Notes: a model not told the origin generated them from the letters alone. A stretch of DNA of 64,000 nucleotides from Escherichia phage P1 (NC_005856.1), one strand, 5' to 3'; numbered from the stretch's first letter, positions 47,802 to 55,116 are shown. Numbers and translations: made by a program.

Positions 47802-48047
47802 TTGGCAGAACGTGTTGATGATGCAGAGCTGAGCATGAATCAGTTAGAAGCTCTCAAAGACATGGCCATCGATAACATCAGAAAGCAGGCACAGGTCGTG
47901 AGCCAGGTATTTACAGGGAAGTGTCGTTACTGCAATGAATCGATTGAATCAGGCATTTATTGTGACGCTGAATGTGCGCAATGGCACAGGGAAGAGCAGG
48001 CCGCAAAACAGCGTAAATATGGCATGCGACCGGCAGGATTTGACTGA
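47802..48047 (+). CDS. small zinc-ribbon protein
   Basis: 81-aa ORF with CRYC...CDAEC four-Cys motif. Confidence 0.45.
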   Translation: MAERVDDAELSMNQLEALKDMAIDNIRKQAQVVSQVFTGKCRYCNESIESGIYCDAECAQWHREEQAAKQRKYGMRPAGFD

Positions 48048-48049
48048 TT

Positions 48050-48628
48050 ATGTTGCGCTTTACTGAGGAAGAGTTTCAGGCTTTTAGTGAGCGTCGAAAT
48101 AAGGGGCGGTCCAGGCCAAAAACCAAAAAGGATCCATTCTTATCGCTTGCGCCGGTAAAAGAAGTTTCTCCACATGCGAAGGCACTTGCAGCACTGGCAA
48201 AGAACCCAGACCTGCGCGACGGAAATTGCGAGCACTTCGAGCAGGTTTTCATTTTTGATTACTTCGAACGCAAGCACCCTGACATCTATGAGCTGTTGCA
48301 TGCAACGCCTAACGGAGGGAAACGTTCAAAAGCAACCGCCGGGAAAATGAAGGCTGAAGGGCAGAAAAAAGGTTATCCGGACATGAGTCTCGATAAAGCA
48401 TGCGGTATTTATCACGGCATGCGAATTGAGCTTAAAGAACCAAATGGTAAAGCCCCGACGAAAGAGCAGATCGCCTGGATGCGCAGGCTTAGAGAGGAAG
48501 GTTACTACGTCGTTCTTGCGTACGGTGCAGAACAAGCGATTACCGCCATCCTGGAATACATAAGTCTTAAAAAGGGTGAGGCTATTGAGCATGTATTGAA
48601 CGGCGATAAGTGGTTGTATGCTGCTTAA
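48050..48628 (+). CDS. VRR-NUC domain nuclease
   Basis: 192-aa ORF; PNGG-KRS...GYPDMSL...ELK pattern typical of VRR-NUC (PD-(D/E)xK) proteins. Confidence 0.6.
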   Translation: MLRFTEEEFQAFSERRNKGRSRPKTKKDPFLSLAPVKEVSPHAKALAALAKNPDLRDGNCEHFEQVFIFDYFERKHPDIYELLHATPNGGKRSKATAGKMKAEGQKKGYPDMSLDKACGIYHGMRIELKEPNGKAPTKEQIAWMRRLREEGYYVVLAYGAEQAITAILEYISLKKGEAIEHVLNGDKWLYAA

Positions 48629-48791
48629 AATAATAAATTAATTAGTGCATGTGCGCTCTTTGTGGTAGTGCACTTTAACATCGGGAGAATAATCGTGTCA
48701 TCCAAGGTTAATTATGAGTCGCTGGCATCGGTCATGCCGCGTAATGAACAGGAAACAGATGCTGTAGTGGACCCTGTAATCGCTGAAATGA

Positions 48792-49454
48792 ATGCTCGCC
48801 TGGAGGCTGAATTTGCAGCTGAGAATGAACATACCACCCAGGGCGACTAGGACTGTTTTTTGTGTCGGTAGCGGTCCGTCACTCACTCGTGAGGACTGTG
48901 CTGCTATAGAAAAAACTGGCTGTTCAATCATCGCGGTTAACAATTCCTGGCAGATGTTCGATGACATTTATGCCTTATACGCCGGTGATTTGTCATGGTG
49001 GAAGCAATACGGATCCACCATACCGGGAGGGAGATTCCGCAAAGTGACAGCCAACCTGGCGGCGGCGAAATCATTTTCGTTGGAGTACAGGCGATATTGT
49101 GGACCGGCGGAAGGGGTAAATAGCGGCGCGCAGGCTATCAGTCTGGCTGCTGAATCAGGGGCTGAAGTAGTGGTATTAGTCGGCTATGACTGTTCTCTGC
49201 AAAACGGCCTTCATTGGCATGGCGCGCACCCTCAAGCACTACGGAATCCAACGCAGGTGTCTATTTCAAAATGGCAACAGCAGTTCCTGGATACCCGCAA
49301 AAAACACGCAGATTTACATATTTTGAATGCAAGTAGGAGCAGTGCAATTCAATGTTTCCCAAGAATAAATTTAGAGGCAGTGATCGCGTTATTATCGTCG
49401 GCAGTGGCCCAAGCGCCGCAAACTTTGTTGCGCCGCGCGGAGTGCCGATTATAG
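48792..49454 (+). CDS. Maf/DUF115-like Rossmann protein (GSGPS motif)
   Basis: 220-aa ORF; VGSGPS...IAVN...NSG...VGYD pattern; paralog of next gene. Confidence 0.45.
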   Translation: MLAWRLNLQLRMNIPPRATRTVFCVGSGPSLTREDCAAIEKTGCSIIAVNNSWQMFDDIYALYAGDLSWWKQYGSTIPGGRFRKVTANLAAAKSFSLEYRRYCGPAEGVNSGAQAISLAAESGAEVVVLVGYDCSLQNGLHWHGAHPQALRNPTQVSISKWQQQFLDTRKKHADLHILNASRSSAIQCFPRINLEAVIALLSSAVAQAPQTLLRRAECRL

Positions 49455-49978
49455 CGGTCAATGGGGCCATCGACTGGCTTAACCGCGCTTCTTATTTTTT
49501 CACCCTTGATCCATCCCCAGACAATATGCGGCGCGTTGGTCGTGGCCGCCGTCGCCGTGGTGTTTGTTATTGCATGGCACTACCCGATGTTAAAGAACGT
49601 GAAGTCAGAGATGGCGTTCTGTGCTTCCGTCGTGTGGCTGAACGCGGCATGGAGCCAAAAAATACGAATTCTCCCGAGTGGTGGGCGTGGCGCTGGTCCG
49701 CACATTTCGGCCTTTGCGAAGATGAGAATGAAATTGCCAGCGGCAATAGTGCATATGGTGCTCTGAACCTGGCTTTCCATATCGGATTCAAACATGTAGC
49801 TCTGGTGGGCGTTGACGCTACGCAAGAACTACGCGTTCACTCCGGCGGCACGCCAAAAAATCTAAGTCACCTGCCTTTGTTATTCCAGTCTGCGCGTGAA
49901 CAGATTGACGTTGTTTCATGCGGGAAAATGGGAGGTATTCCGCAGATGACTCTTAAAGAATGGCTGAAGAATACATGA
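49352..49978 (+). CDS. Maf/DUF115-like paralog
   Basis: 208-aa ORF; IIVGSGPS...IAVNGA; 5' end overlaps previous ORF out of frame. Confidence 0.45.
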
Positions 49979-52986: not shown

Positions 52987-53493
52987 TTGAGTATTTTCAA
53001 TAAACACGCACACCCGGAACGTCCGTACATCGTCATAGTAGATATTGATGGGACGATATCAGAGGCAACGGAAGACAGGCTGCATTTACTTCCACCACCT
53101 GGCAAAGGTGCATTAACAGAACACTGGAACGAGTTTAACCTTGCCTGTGACACCGATACTCCCATCACTCCAGTTATTGATATGGTGCGCCAGTTATTTA
53201 ACGTTTACACGGTCTGGTTTGTAACCGGGCGCTGTGAGATCGCAAGGGATAAAACACGAGCCTGGCTGCGGAAGTACGTAACAAACGGGGCTGAGCCTTT
53301 GCTATCTATGCGTCCTGCCACCGATGACAGAAATGACGGCCCAGCAAAGATTGATCTCCTTAAGAAAATTGGTCTAAGTAAAATCGCGTTCGCGCTGGAA
53401 GATAAGATTGAAGTGGCGCGTGTTTTCAGGAGGCACGGCGTGCTTACGTTAATGGTCAGGGAGTATGAAAATGCGCTTCTTCATCAACAATAA
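52987..53493 (+). CDS. HAD-like phosphatase
   Basis: 168-aa ORF with DIDGT motif near N-terminus. Confidence 0.5.
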   Translation: MSIFNKHAHPERPYIVIVDIDGTISEATEDRLHLLPPPGKGALTEHWNEFNLACDTDTPITPVIDMVRQLFNVYTVWFVTGRCEIARDKTRAWLRKYVTNGAEPLLSMRPATDDRNDGPAKIDLLKKIGLSKIAFALEDKIEVARVFRRHGVLTLMVREYENALLHQQ

Positions 53494-53509
53494 TTGCTCT
53501 AATAAATCT
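53493..53509. promoter_or_regulatory. C1 operator
   Basis: ATTGCTCTAATAAATCT, one mismatch; overlaps stop of upstream gene. Confidence 0.65.
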
Positions 53510-53687
53510 TGATTTTTAAAACAGAGAAAGTGAAAATAAAAACATGCCGCAAGGCGCGGCATGTTTCCAATCAATCACAGGAGCTGAAAATATGAACACG
53601 GCATTCAAAATCATTATGGCCGCGATCTATTTCTGGCTGTTCTCTATCACTTTTGGCGGCATCGTCGCGCATGGGTAAGGGGGATGC

Positions 53688-54617
53688 ATGAAAGGCGAAG
53701 TGAAAGAGCGCGGCATGATTTTCAACGATGAGATGGTCCGGGCCATCCTCGAAGGAAGGAAAACGCAGACGCGGCGGATAATGAAAAATCAGCCTGCGGA
53801 AGTTGGTCCAGAAGCACCAGTGATGGTTAGAAAAATTGGTGCAGGTTTTCAGTGGTACGGGGCTGATGGTGTAAGCAGTGTTTTCAATTGCCCATTTGGT
53901 ATCGTCGGCGATCGAATTTGGGTTCGTGAAACATGGGCGATATTAGGCAATGAGGATGGTTGCAGTGTGGACTGGAACGACAACCTTTGTCGTGGCGATG
54001 AGAAGAACGCAGCAAGGATTTATCGGGCCAGTTGCGAGCAAAAACCTGGTGATTACGGCTTATGGTCGATACCCGATGATGCCGACTGGAAACCTCACAC
54101 TGTGAATGAAAAGTTTGATGGTGGGTGGCGTCCATCAATTCACATGCCGCGATGGGCATCACGCATTCTGTTGGAAATTACCAACGTGCGCGTTGAACGG
54201 TTGAACGATATCAGCGAATGCGATGCAAGGGATGAGGGCGTTCCGCCTGCTGGAAGTTTGCTTCCTGATCACCCGGGAACATTCCTTACTCCCAAGGGGG
54301 ATTTCGCAATGGCCAAGGTTGCGTTCCAGCGCCTGTGGGAATCCATCTACGGCGAAGAAAGCTGGAGTGCTAATCCCTGGGTTACGAGGCTGGCAACTAT
54401 CCGGACATTCCGGATAGTTCGGTGCCAGCGAAAGGAAAGGGCGTCCCCGGTGAACGTATCCGAATTAAGCCGCATGTTTATCGCGAACTGGTTAACCGCC
54501 TCCACGATACAGCGGTCAAGTGTGCTGGCACCCAGCAATTACGAGAAAGAATTAGCCGTGTTTTGGGCGACGTTATTACGCCAGATCATCATAAACAAGC
54601 CGAGAAAAGTGACCTAG
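53688..54617 (+). CDS. protein with ASCH/PUA-like N-terminal domain (PmgT position)
   Basis: ORF beginning MIFNDEMVRAILEGRKTQTRR; 3' 196 nt overlap an out-of-frame ORF (54422-54757), so true end uncertain. Confidence 0.4.
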   Translation: MKGEVKERGMIFNDEMVRAILEGRKTQTRRIMKNQPAEVGPEAPVMVRKIGAGFQWYGADGVSSVFNCPFGIVGDRIWVRETWAILGNEDGCSVDWNDNLCRGDEKNAARIYRASCEQKPGDYGLWSIPDDADWKPHTVNEKFDGGWRPSIHMPRWASRILLEITNVRVERLNDISECDARDEGVPPAGSLLPDHPGTFLTPKGDFAMAKVAFQRLWESIYGEESWSANPWVTRLATIRTFRIVRCQRKERASPVNVSELSRMFIANWLTASTIQRSSVLAPSNYEKELAVFWATLLRQIIINKPRKVT

Positions 54618-54753
54618 AAAGGTGTCACCTTGAGGCGGCATTAAACATTAAGCCGGGGCATACGCTTGGCATTATCGATGCTCTGTTGGTTCATAAGATG
54701 GCCATGGCTTTATTGCCGTTGGTGGATGCTGGCGATACAAGCGAGGGTGAAGT

Positions 54754-55116
54754 ATGAGAGTTGCAGATCACATCAAACACCTTGAAAGAATTATCGAAAA
54801 CGGTGAACTCTTAAGAGATCAGATGAGACGCACGGCAGAAGTCAGAGAGGCGATAATCCGCAGTCAGGCTGGTAAATTAAAGCAATTGTCAGAGATTAAC
54901 GCGCTATACAAGAACAGACGTAACCGGGCGGCGCTGCGGCTTCAGAAAGCACGTAATGAAATTAAATTGGTGGAGGCAAAACTGAAAAAACAGATTCAGC
55001 GTTACGATCAGCAAGATGCTTTTTATGCCGCCATCAAGGCGGCTGCTAATGAAATAGGCATCTGGAAGTTGCTGGTGGAGAAAGCAAAGACGAAGTTAAA
55101 TGCCAACGAAAGCTGA
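54754..55116 (+). CDS. coiled-coil protein (PmgV position)
   Basis: 120-aa ORF; heptad-rich. Confidence 0.4.
   Translation: MRVADHIKHLERIIENGELLRDQMRRTAEVREAIIRSQAGKLKQLSEINALYKNRRNRAALRLQKARNEIKLVEAKLKKQIQRYDQQDAFYAAIKAAANEIGIWKLLVEKAKTKLNANES

What the first reader, a model, noticed from the sequence alone, without database searches (positions are those of the whole stretch)
47802..54757. Enzyme-rich operon bracketed by C1 operators
Beyond the transferase-like genes, this rightward operon encodes a zinc-ribbon protein, a VRR-NUC nuclease, a HAD-like phosphatase (DIDGT) and an ASCH/PUA-like protein. C1 operator-like sites lie at 47728, 51352/51401 and 53493, indicating direct repression in the lysogen. 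This is an unusual concentration of nucleic-acid and phospho-transfer enzymes for genes usually labelled morphogenetic.
Basis: partly seen in the sequence, partly recalled or inferred. Interest (0 to 1): 0.4.

Follow-up and report, generated by a model that had tools for sequence, protein, structure and literature searches.

The report
Phage P1 pmgL–pmgV accessory genes
This is the already annotated pmgL–pmgV stretch of bacteriophage P1: several repressor-controlled gene units that carry one true virion-assembly gene and a set of dispensable accessory enzymes, so the finding is correct in its details but ordinary.

Summary
The window is bacteriophage P1 itself: 47600-54900 is 100% identical to AF234173.1.

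**Operators.** A fifth annotated operator, Op83 at 48635-48651, was missed.

**Domain calls.** All were verified:
- PmgL is a DksA-like zinc-finger protein.
- PmgM is a VRR-NUC nuclease (PDB 4qbl, E 3.5e-17).
- Ppp is a lambda-type phosphatase.
- Pap is a HAD/PNKP-type phosphatase.

**Not one operon.** The record annotates four operator-associated promoter regions. I also found two intrinsic-terminator hairpins, one after pmgQ and one after pmgS.

**Essentiality.** Published knockouts and CRISPRi show that only pmgR is needed for virion assembly. The enzyme genes are dispensable for plaque formation, and their deletion did not change antirestriction (PMC9024508, PMC10695390).

**Small additions from this work:**
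- PmgO-PmgP-PmgQ is a collinear transferase cassette found in unrelated phages.
- P1's pmgT and pmgU look like remnants of a roughly 3-kb deletion relative to P7.
- An ORF between Op88 and pmgT is unannotated in this record.

Verdict: observation confirmed, interpretation partly supported, already known, low interest.

The parts
47695..47713 (+). Late (Lpa-dependent) promoter LPpmgL, sharing its -22 element with the leftward LP26
   Evidence: GenBank annotation of AF234173.1 78176-78194; window = record - 30481
47728..47744 (-). C1 operator O26 (former Op82). It overlaps the -10 of P2pmgL and the -35 of P1pmgL.
   Evidence: 2 mismatches to consensus; annotated protein_bind; exact copy in 67 of 80 P1-like loci
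47802..48047 (+). pmgL: 81-aa protein with four Cys, a DksA/TraR-like zinc finger
   Evidence: phrog_54 E 1.6e-12; nonessential
48050..48628 (+). pmgM: VRR-NUC (PD-(D/E)xK) nuclease with D111, E127 and K129
   Evidence: PDB 4qbl E 3.5e-17; Pfam VRR_NUC 21.2 bits, below the 23.8 cut-off; phrog_5702 'Holliday junction resolvase'
48635..48651 (-). C1 operator Oppp (former Op83), downstream of the predicted PpmgN -10.
   Evidence: Annotated; CATGCACTAATTAATTT, 4 mismatches; also annotated in P7 as Op(hdm)
48695..48850 (+). pmgN: 51-aa protein of unknown function
   Evidence: Annotation; essential by CRISPRi but not by deletion
48792..49454 (+). pmgO: MptE/DUF115-like transferase, first gene of the conserved PmgO-PmgP-PmgQ cassette
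   Evidence: Pfam MptE-like 23.4 bits, below cut-off; phrog_4603; homologues in 71 phage records
49352..49978 (+). pmgP: distant relative of PmgO (also MptE-like)
   Evidence: homologues follow the PmgO homologue in phiNP, IME392 and Xoo-sp13
49960..50652 (+). ppp: lambda-type Ser/Thr (PPP-family) metallophosphatase
   Evidence: Pfam Metallophos 59.4 bits; PDB 1g5b E 6e-95; nonessential
50649..51350 (+). pmgQ: predicted glycosyltransferase with a DxD motif (YLDLDTV)
   Evidence: phrog_1962 E 2e-127; weak alignment of the DxD region to the glycosyltransferase chain 6mw5, E 0.08; no Pfam hit
51352..51368 (+). C1 operator OpmgRa (Op86a), overlapping the -35 of PpmgR
   Evidence: exact copy in 78 of 80 loci
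51377..51404 (+). Intrinsic-terminator-like hairpin (11-bp stem plus U-run) after pmgQ. It lies between Op86a and Op86b and overlaps the PpmgR -10.
   Evidence: dG -13.4 kcal/mol, z -4.8; exact copy in 68 of 80 loci; no terminator is annotated here in the record
51401..51417 (-). C1 operator OpmgRb (Op86b)
   Evidence: exact copy in 80 of 80 loci
51432..51650 (+). [quoted passage not shown]
   Evidence: PMC9024508
51652..52914 (+). pmgS: 420-aa coiled-coil protein, nonessential
52934..52962 (+). Intrinsic terminator (11-bp G+C-rich stem plus T7) between pmgS and pap
   Evidence: dG -18.1 kcal/mol, z -4.3
52987..53493 (+). pap: HAD-superfamily phosphatase of the PNKP 3'-phosphatase type (DIDGT at residues 19-23)
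   Evidence: Pfam HAD_PNKP 46.5 bits against 27.6; phrog_415; Pnkp1 4xrp E 3e-4
53493..53509 (+). C1 operator OpmgT (Op88), overlapping the -35 of P2pmgT
   Evidence: 1 mismatch; annotated
53540..53566 (.). Stable hairpin in the pmgT leader, scored as a terminator only for the minus strand
   Evidence: dG -20.5 kcal/mol, z -6.6
53544..53678 (+). ORF not annotated in AF234173: 44 aa, or 28 aa from the ATG at 53592 behind an AGGAG
   Evidence: annotated as WP_001312275.1 in a RefSeq P1-like plasmid
53688..54617 (+). pmgT: ASCH-fold protein (residues 1-232) fused to a 77-aa tail that only near-identical proteins share
54422..54757 (+). pmgU: corresponds to the last 111 aa of the 432-aa P7 protein Upf89.5
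   Evidence: 93% identity to residues 322-432
   Evidence: Annotation; phrog_4403

Best explanation
The region is the pmgL-pmgV segment of bacteriophage P1.

Architecture. It is not a single operon. It is a row of rightward transcription units: pmgL-pmgM; pmgN-pmgO-pmgP-ppp-pmgQ; pmgR-pmgS (with pap behind a terminator); and pmgT-pmgU-pmgV. Each unit starts at predicted sigma-70 promoters that overlap or abut a 17-bp asymmetric C1 operator. A late Lpa-dependent promoter sits at the left end.

Regulation. In the lysogen C1 occupies the operators and keeps the units silent. After induction or infection they are transcribed (inferred from operator and promoter positions; not measured here).

Cargo. 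It is mixed. [quoted passage not shown] The rest are accessory enzymes that are not needed for plaque formation:
- a DksA-like zinc-finger protein (PmgL);
- a VRR-NUC nuclease (PmgM);
- a conserved three-gene transferase cassette (PmgO, PmgP, PmgQ) with a lambda-type protein phosphatase (Ppp) inserted;
- a PNKP-type HAD phosphatase (Pap);
- an ASCH (YqfB-like) protein (PmgT), which in P1 lacks the family's C-terminal end.

What is shown and what is inferred. Shown: identity to P1, operator matches and their conservation, domain and fold assignments, hairpins, cassette synteny, and published dispensability. Inferred: the timing of expression, terminator function and all biochemical activities.
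For: - 100% identity to AF234173.1 over 7301 bases, with full annotation of genes, promoters and five C1 operators. P7 shows the same layout.
- Operator matches far exceed chance and are conserved in position in 80 P1-like loci.
- Two terminator hairpins with z-scores -4.8 and -4.3.
- Domain evidence.
- Dispensability of every gene except pmgR: deletions in PMC9024508, and the CRISPRi table in PMC10695390, which also lists the deletion results gene by gene.
- pmgT-humD is a published hypervariable region of P1-like phage-plasmids (PMC9603915). This agrees with only 46 of 80 loci keeping a PmgT homologue and 5 of 80 keeping pmgU within 6 kb.
Against: - No transcript or C1-binding data were examined here. 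The promoters are 'predicted' in the record, and my own consensus scan recovered none of them at its threshold.
- Op83 has 4 mismatches to the consensus, and its exact 17-mer is present in only 26 of 80 related loci.
- Op82 may act mainly on the leftward gene-26 operon.
- CRISPRi scored pmgN as essential, in conflict with the deletion result.
- Dispensability was tested only as plaquing on laboratory E. coli and against a small set of restriction systems.
Confidence: 0.85

Rival explanations
1. One reading: a single rightward operon of enzyme genes, bracketed by C1 operators and switched off as one block in the lysogen.
For: All genes are on the + strand, and many overlap or abut one another. 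A late promoter at the left end could drive read-through.
Against: The record annotates internal promoter/operator sets before pmgN, pmgR and pmgT. Terminator hairpins follow pmgQ and pmgS. P7 annotates separate hdm, sht and hea operons.
Confidence: 0.1
2. PmgO, PmgP and PmgQ form a sugar-transfer module that decorates virion proteins. The old 'morphogenetic' label would then be loosely right for these three genes, as a non-essential modification of the particle.
For: - The three genes are collinear in Citrobacter phage phiNP, E. coli phage IME392 and the Xanthomonas jumbo phages Xoo-sp13 and XacN1.
- The extra enzyme in the cassette varies: a Glycos_transf_1 protein in IME392 and a TylF-type methyltransferase domain fused to the PmgQ homologue in Xoo-sp13.
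- The cassette, or the PmgO homologue alone, sits beside structural genes: before terS in phiNP, before a 'host specificity protein' in Xoo-sp13, and between the major capsid and connector genes in D3.
- P1 has a late promoter upstream.
Against: - The Pfam matches of PmgO and PmgP are below threshold, and PmgQ has none.
- Neither a substrate nor a sugar is known.
- In P1 the cassette has its own C1-controlled promoter.
- The P1 virion proteome paper, in the passages read, does not mention these proteins or any glycosylation.
- Deletions have no plaque phenotype.
- Synteny with structural genes may only reflect common insertion sites for accessory genes.
Confidence: 0.2
3. The enzymes are a counter-defence or nucleic-acid repair kit. 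In this reading VRR-NUC processes branched DNA, Pap heals 3'-phosphate ends, Ppp reverses host kinase signalling and PmgT removes base modifications. They would matter only in hosts that carry the matching defence systems.
For: - The catalytic motifs are intact (DIDGT in Pap).
- The units are C1-repressed and so, by inference, expressed on induction.
- They are dispensable on laboratory strains.
- The right-hand part is a hypervariable cargo site, as is typical of arms-race genes.
Against: - Knockouts showed no change in antirestriction.
- No homology to any described anti-defence protein was found or tested.
- pmgL-pap is highly conserved rather than variable (>=90% identity in 70-80 of 80 loci).
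- The P1 PmgT copy lacks the family's C-terminal end.
Confidence: 0.2
4. The legacy label is right for all of them: every pmg gene here takes part in virion morphogenesis.
For: pmgR is essential for joining heads and tails. pmgR and pmgS are among the 21 most conserved genes of P1-like elements.
Against: Eleven of the twelve other genes in the region are nonessential by both deletion and CRISPRi; pmgN is nonessential by deletion only. Several have clear enzyme folds unrelated to known structural proteins.
Confidence: 0.03

Closest known systems
Bacteriophage P1 pmgL-pmgV region (GenBank AF234173.1; P1 genome annotation)
   Same: Identical sequence. Same genes, promoters and C1 operators Op82, Op83, Op86a, Op86b and Op88.
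   Different: Nothing differs in sequence. The record does not annotate the two terminator hairpins, the ORF at 53544-53678, or the domain identities of PmgL, PmgM, PmgO, PmgP, PmgQ and PmgT.
Phage P7 hdm, sht and hea operons (NC_050152.1)
   Same: 97.8% DNA identity from gene 26 to just inside the pmgT homologue, with the same five operators and the same gene order.
   Different: Downstream of Op88, P7 has a shorter PmgT allele (47% identity). It also carries about 3 kb that P1 lacks: upf87.4, upf87.6, upf88.3, upf89.0 and the first three quarters of upf89.5.
Lambda protein phosphatase (NinI; PDB 1g5b)
   Same: Ppp aligns over its full length to lambda phosphatase at E 6e-95. In both phages the gene is a dispensable accessory gene; for lambda this is from general knowledge.
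   Different: In P1 the gene sits inside the PmgO-PmgP-PmgQ cassette under C1 control. In lambda it lies in the nin region (from general knowledge).
E. coli YqfB, an ASCH-domain N4-acetylcytidine amidohydrolase (PDB 9kyf, 1te7)
   Different: PmgT-family proteins are about 240 aa, so they carry roughly 130 aa beyond the ASCH core. There is no significant sequence match to Pfam ASCH for PmgT itself. The P1 copy has lost the family's C-terminal ...WVIEFK end. Activity is untested.
Stand-alone VRR-NUC nuclease (PDB 4qbl)
   Same: E 3.5e-17 over residues 77-180, with the catalytic GYPD...E-x-K aligned.
   Different: PmgM has an extra N-terminal stretch of about 75 aa with no match. Nuclease activity is untested.
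PNKP-type 3'-phosphatase domains (Pfam HAD_PNKP; Pnkp1, PDB 4xrp)
   Same: Passes the Pfam threshold and has the DxDxT motif.
   Different: Pap is a stand-alone phosphatase domain with no kinase domain. Its substrate is unknown.

Membership tests
P1 C1-controlled operators | 17-bp asymmetric site matching ATTGCTCTAATAAATTT | tested here: met
   The four sites have 1-3 mismatches. The window holds 14 matches against 0.41 expected. Op83 has 4 mismatches; at <=4 mismatches the window holds 16 matches against 2.4 expected.
P1 C1-controlled operators | Position on or next to a promoter | tested here: inconclusive
   The operators overlap promoter hexamers that are only 'predicted' in AF234173.1. 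My consensus scan did not recover those promoters.
P1 C1-controlled operators | Bound by C1 protein | not testable with these tools
   The record cites former Op names and earlier GenBank entries for Op82 and Op88. The primary papers are not in the library.
Single operon | One promoter and no internal terminators | tested here: not met
   Four annotated promoter/operator regions and two terminator hairpins.
VRR-NUC (PF08774) - PmgM | Match to the family profile | tested here: inconclusive
   21.2 bits against a gathering score of 23.8, E 3e-4.
VRR-NUC (PF08774) - PmgM | Homology to a solved VRR-NUC, with the D...E-x-K catalytic motif | tested here: met
   4qbl at E 3.5e-17, with GYPD and RIE-K aligned.
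PPP-family metallophosphatase - Ppp | Profile match and the GDxHG, GDxxDRG and GNHE motifs | tested here: met
   Metallophos 59.4 bits; 1g5b at E 6e-95 with all three motifs aligned.
HAD superfamily, PNKP phosphatase type - Pap | Profile match and the DxDxT nucleophile motif | tested here: met
   HAD_PNKP 46.5 bits against 27.6; DIDGT at residues 19-23.
ASCH domain - PmgT | Match to Pfam PF04266 | tested here: not met
   No hit for PmgT. Only 11 of 78 homologues hit weakly, best E 1.3e-4.
ASCH domain - PmgT | ASCH fold | tested here: met
ASCH domain - PmgT | Complete domain, including the family's C-terminal end | tested here: not met
   The P1 sequence departs from all homologues after ANPWV (residue 232) and loses WVIEFKR.
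DksA/TraR C4 zinc finger - PmgL | Four Cys and a family profile match | tested here: inconclusive
   C41, C44, C54 and C58 are present. phrog_54 matches at E 1.6e-12. Pfam zf-dskA_traR is not hit; only VATC at E 0.009.
Glycosyltransferase with a DxD motif - PmgQ | Profile or structure match and a DxD motif | tested here: inconclusive
   phrog_1962 'glycosyltransferase'. No Pfam hit. 6mw5 at E 0.08, with DLD aligned to DAD. No structure was predicted.
MptE-like/DUF115 - PmgO and PmgP | Match to PF01973 | tested here: inconclusive
   23.4 and 20.9 bits against a gathering score of 34.6, covering only the C-terminal part of the profile.

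The most novel reading that the evidence does not exclude
PmgO-PmgP-PmgQ is an uncharacterised transferase cassette shared by unrelated phages, with a variable fourth enzyme. It would attach a sugar or a related group to a phage or host macromolecule, whether virion protein, DNA or envelope. The neighbouring VRR-NUC, PNKP-type phosphatase and YqfB-like ASCH proteins would give P1 a conditionally useful modification, repair or counter-defence kit that laboratory plaque assays cannot reveal.
Probability: 0.2. Interest if true: 0.5.

Novelty: already known. Interest (0 to 1): 0.12.

Why it matters
As submitted, the finding adds nothing to the public record of one of the best-studied phages.

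The residual value is practical.
- The legacy label 'putative morphogenetic function' is wrong for most of these genes and right for pmgR.
- The PmgO-PmgP-PmgQ cassette is the best candidate here for a biochemical function that has not yet been described.
- P1's own pmgT and pmgU look like deletion remnants. Functional work on the ASCH protein should use an intact allele from a P1-like plasmid.

Tried and rejected
- Structure of PmgT from a shallow alignment (18 sequences, >=60% identity) gave pLDDT 43 and was discarded. It was repeated with 78 diverse representatives.
- A sequence search and a profile search of the PmgT family against PDB sequences found nothing.
- hhalign of the family against YqfB alone aligned only the N-terminal motif (probability 13%).
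- A second word-indexed homologue search with the profile returned only close relatives.
- NCBIfam gave no match for any protein except Ppp and coiled-coil noise for PmgS.
- PmgO has no relative of solved structure detectable by sequence.
- The search for related loci with PmgQ returned only P1-like contigs. That was useful for conservation but not for distant synteny, which came from tblastn against phage records instead.
- The P1 genome paper (PMC523184) is not held. Searches for DUF115 or MptE-like proteins in phages and for ASCH in anti-defence found nothing relevant.
- The two P1vir RNA-seq papers, in the passages read, did not establish early or late timing for these genes.
- I considered a DNA-hypermodification cluster for pmgN-pmgQ but found no supporting evidence.

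Full report
**Identity of the sequence.** Window 47600-54900 is 100% identical over all 7301 bases to Escherichia phage P1 (AF234173.1, P1 mod1902::IS5 c1.100), record positions 78081-85381. Window coordinate = record coordinate - 30481, and the window ends at the end of the record. Sixteen other P1-like phages, including P7, RCS47 and SJ46, cover at least 80% of the query. The finding therefore concerns the pmgL-pmgV segment of P1, which is fully annotated in the public record.

**Check of the observation: operators.** A search for the C1 operator consensus ATTGCTCTAATAAATTT with up to 3 mismatches gives 14 sites in the window, against 0.41 expected from shuffles.
- The record annotates these as C1 operators O26 (former Op82), OpmgRa (Op86a), OpmgRb (Op86b) and OpmgT (Op88).
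It reads CATGCACTAATTAATTT, with 4 mismatches. At that stringency the window has 16 sites against 2.4 in shuffles.
- In 80 P1-like IMG/VR contigs retrieved with PmgQ, operators lie at the same offsets from pmgQ in 58 to 80 loci.
- Exact 17-mers are kept in 67 (Op82), 78 (Op86a), 80 (Op86b), 42 (Op88) and 26 (Op83) of the 80 loci.

**Check of the observation: proteins.**
- PmgL (81 aa) has four cysteines and matches phrog_54, 'DksA-like zinc-finger protein', at E 1.6e-12. Pfam gives only a weak treble-clef hit.
- PmgM scores just under the Pfam VRR_NUC threshold (21.2 against 23.8 bits). It matches the solved VRR-NUC protein 4qbl at E 3.5e-17, with GYPD and RIE-K aligned. In PmgM these are D111, E127 and K129.
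- Ppp passes Pfam Metallophos and aligns end to end with lambda phosphatase 1g5b at E 6e-95, with the GDxHG, GDxxDRG and GNHE motifs conserved.
- Pap passes Pfam HAD_PNKP (46.5 against 27.6 bits) and has DIDGT at residues 19-23.
- PmgO and PmgP give MptE-like hits below threshold. PmgO matches phrog_4603, labelled 'alpha-2,3-sialyltransferase'.
- PmgQ matches phrog_1962, 'glycosyltransferase'. Its YLDLDTV aligns weakly with the DxD region of the glycosyltransferase chain 6mw5 (E 0.08).

**PmgT as an ASCH protein.**
- PmgT has no Pfam, NCBIfam or PDB sequence match. A few homologues are named 'ASCH domain-containing protein' by NCBI.
- ASCH is the only Pfam family hit among diverse homologues, and only weakly: 11 of 78 members, best E 1.3e-4.
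- The family is very large, with 50,551 representatives at E <= 0.001.
- A first model from a shallow alignment failed (pLDDT 43). A model from 78 diverse sequences reached pLDDT 88 and pTM 0.84.
- The PmgT motif GRKTQTRR aligns with YqfB GRKTITIR.

**Anatomy: not one operon.** The record places predicted sigma-70 promoters with an operator on or beside them before pmgL, pmgN, pmgR and pmgT. A late promoter LPpmgL sits at the far left, back to back with LP26. P7 is annotated in the same way, as separate hdm, sht and hea operons.

I found three stable hairpins that the record does not annotate.
- **51377-51404.** An 11-bp stem followed by a U-run (-13.4 kcal/mol, z -4.8) lies directly after the pmgQ stop codon, between Op86a and Op86b. 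The PpmgR -10 is at 51376-51381. Transcripts that start there would begin inside the hairpin and escape it, while read-through from pmgQ would meet a complete terminator. This is an inference.
- **52934-52962.** An 11-bp G+C-rich stem followed by seven T (-18.1 kcal/mol, z -4.3) separates pmgS from pap. Pap is thus left without an annotated promoter of its own.
- **53540-53566.** This hairpin (-20.5 kcal/mol, z -6.6) lies in the pmgT leader and has a good T-run only on the minus strand.

My simple promoter scan did not recover the annotated promoters, so they remain predictions.

**What is known experimentally.**
- Gonzales et al. (PMC9024508) made 29 single-gene knockouts. [quoted passage not shown]
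- Piya et al. (PMC10695390) list pmgL, M, O, P, ppp, Q, S, pap, T, U and V as nonessential by both CRISPRi and deletion. pmgR is essential by deletion but was missed by CRISPRi. pmgN is essential by CRISPRi only.
- A survey of P1-like phage-plasmids (PMC9603915) places pmgT-humD among eight hypervariable regions, and pmgR and pmgS among the 21 most conserved genes.
- My own counts agree. pmgL to pap are present at >=90% identity in 70-80 of 80 loci. A PmgT homologue is present in 46 loci, at identities down to 44%. pmgU lies within 6 kb of pmgQ in only 5 loci.

- **P1's pmgT and pmgU look like deletion remnants.** All homologues of PmgT are about 235-250 aa and end ...ANPWVWVIEFKRI. P1 departs after ANPWV (residue 232) and runs on for 77 residues that only near-identical proteins share. 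DNA homology with P7 resumes at window 54382, equal to P7 locus position 10171. PmgU is 93% identical to the last 111 residues of the 432-aa P7 protein Upf89.5. Relative to P7, P1 lacks about 3 kb of cargo, and its ASCH protein has lost the family's C-terminal end.
- **PmgO, PmgP and PmgQ form a collinear cassette outside the P1 group.**
  - The cassette occurs in Citrobacter phage phiNP, where the PmgO homologue is unannotated. It also occurs in E. coli phage IME392 and the Xanthomonas jumbo phage Xoo-sp13.
  - XacN1 has the PmgQ homologue in a gene layout like that of Xoo-sp13.
  - The slot that ppp occupies in P1 holds a Glycos_transf_1 protein in IME392. In Xoo-sp13 a TylF-type methyltransferase domain is fused to the PmgQ homologue.
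  - These cassettes lie next to terS (phiNP) or a tail 'host specificity' gene (Xoo-sp13).
  - In Pseudomonas phage D3 the PmgO homologue sits between the major capsid and head-tail connector genes.
  - This suggests a shared, non-essential transfer reaction, perhaps on virion components. Neither substrate nor chemistry is known.
- **An ORF between Op88 and pmgT** (53544-53678, or 28 hydrophobic residues from 53592 behind an AGGAG) is not annotated in AF234173. RefSeq annotates it in a P1-like plasmid. An 84-bp piece of it lies beside hsdR in many F-type plasmids, as the P1 record also notes.

**Most likely mechanism.** In the prophage, C1 bound at Op82, Op83, Op86a/b and Op88 blocks the adjoining sigma-70 promoters. 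When C1 is inactivated the four units are transcribed, and the Lpa-dependent LPpmgL may add late transcription from the left. [quoted passage not shown] The other products are accessory enzymes whose loss is not felt on laboratory hosts.
- Shown here or in the cited papers: sequence identity, operator matches and their conservation, folds and motifs, hairpin stability, cassette synteny and gene dispensability.
- Inferred: promoter use, terminator function, timing of expression and every enzymatic activity.

**Comparison and verdict.** The region is a member of, and in fact identical to, the annotated P1 pmgL-pmgV segment. Novelty: already known. Interest is low. The only lead with some promise is the conserved PmgO-PmgP-PmgQ cassette.

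Noticed in passing
window 54382 (junction); pmgT 53688-54617; pmgU 54422-54757: P1 pmgT loses the family's C-terminal ...WVIEFKRI and gains a 77-aa tail that only near-identical proteins share. pmgU equals the last 111 aa of the 432-aa P7 protein Upf89.5. P1 therefore appears to carry a deletion of about 3 kb relative to P7 that fuses the two genes.
   Followed up: yes
window 53544-53678 (ATG at 53592 behind an AGGAG): This ORF encodes a hydrophobic peptide (MNTAFKIIMAAIYFWLFSITFGGIVAHG from the inner ATG) between Op88 and pmgT. It is not annotated in AF234173 but is annotated as WP_001312275.1 in a RefSeq P1-like plasmid. An 84-bp piece of it occurs at about 99% identity beside hsdR and IS1 in many F-type plasmids.
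   Followed up: partly
window 51377-51404: A terminator-like hairpin sits between Op86a and Op86b and overlaps the PpmgR -10. Read-through from pmgQ would be stopped, while transcripts started at PpmgR would begin inside the hairpin (exact copy in 68 of 80 related loci).
   Followed up: partly
window 52934-52962: A strong intrinsic terminator lies between pmgS and pap. It leaves pap with no annotated promoter between the terminator and its start codon.
   Followed up: partly
L085 about 2376-4148; L086 1447-4121; L087 1574-4160; L089 1032-3654: The PmgO-PmgP-PmgQ cassette is collinear in Citrobacter phage phiNP, E. coli phage IME392 and Xanthomonas phage Xoo-sp13. XacN1 has the PmgQ homologue in a similar gene layout. 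The extra enzyme varies: GT1-like in IME392, a TylF-like methyltransferase fusion in Xoo-sp13, and ppp in P1. The phiNP PmgO homologue is not annotated.
   Followed up: partly
L088 2837-3555 (phage D3 orf6.5 and orf7): The PmgO homologue of Pseudomonas phage D3 spans two annotated ORFs, so it may be one gene that was split in annotation. It lies between the major capsid and head-tail connector genes.
   Followed up: no
protein P0110 (305 aa); possibly also P0154 and P0163: Some PmgT-family proteins carry an N-terminal DksA/TraR zinc finger (PF01258), the kind of protein that PmgL resembles. This hints at a functional link between PmgL-like and PmgT-like proteins.
   Followed up: no
window 17340, 19010, 34345, 37867/37878, 59104, 61618, 63377, 63841, 63924: Ten further matches to the C1 operator consensus lie elsewhere in the window, including an overlapping divergent pair at 37867/37878. 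They are presumably the other known P1 operators; I did not check them against the annotation.
   Followed up: no
window 48695-48850 (pmgN): The published data conflict: pmgN is essential by CRISPRi but dispensable by deletion. pmgN overlaps the start of pmgO and is the first gene of its unit, so a polar or off-target effect is possible.
   Followed up: no
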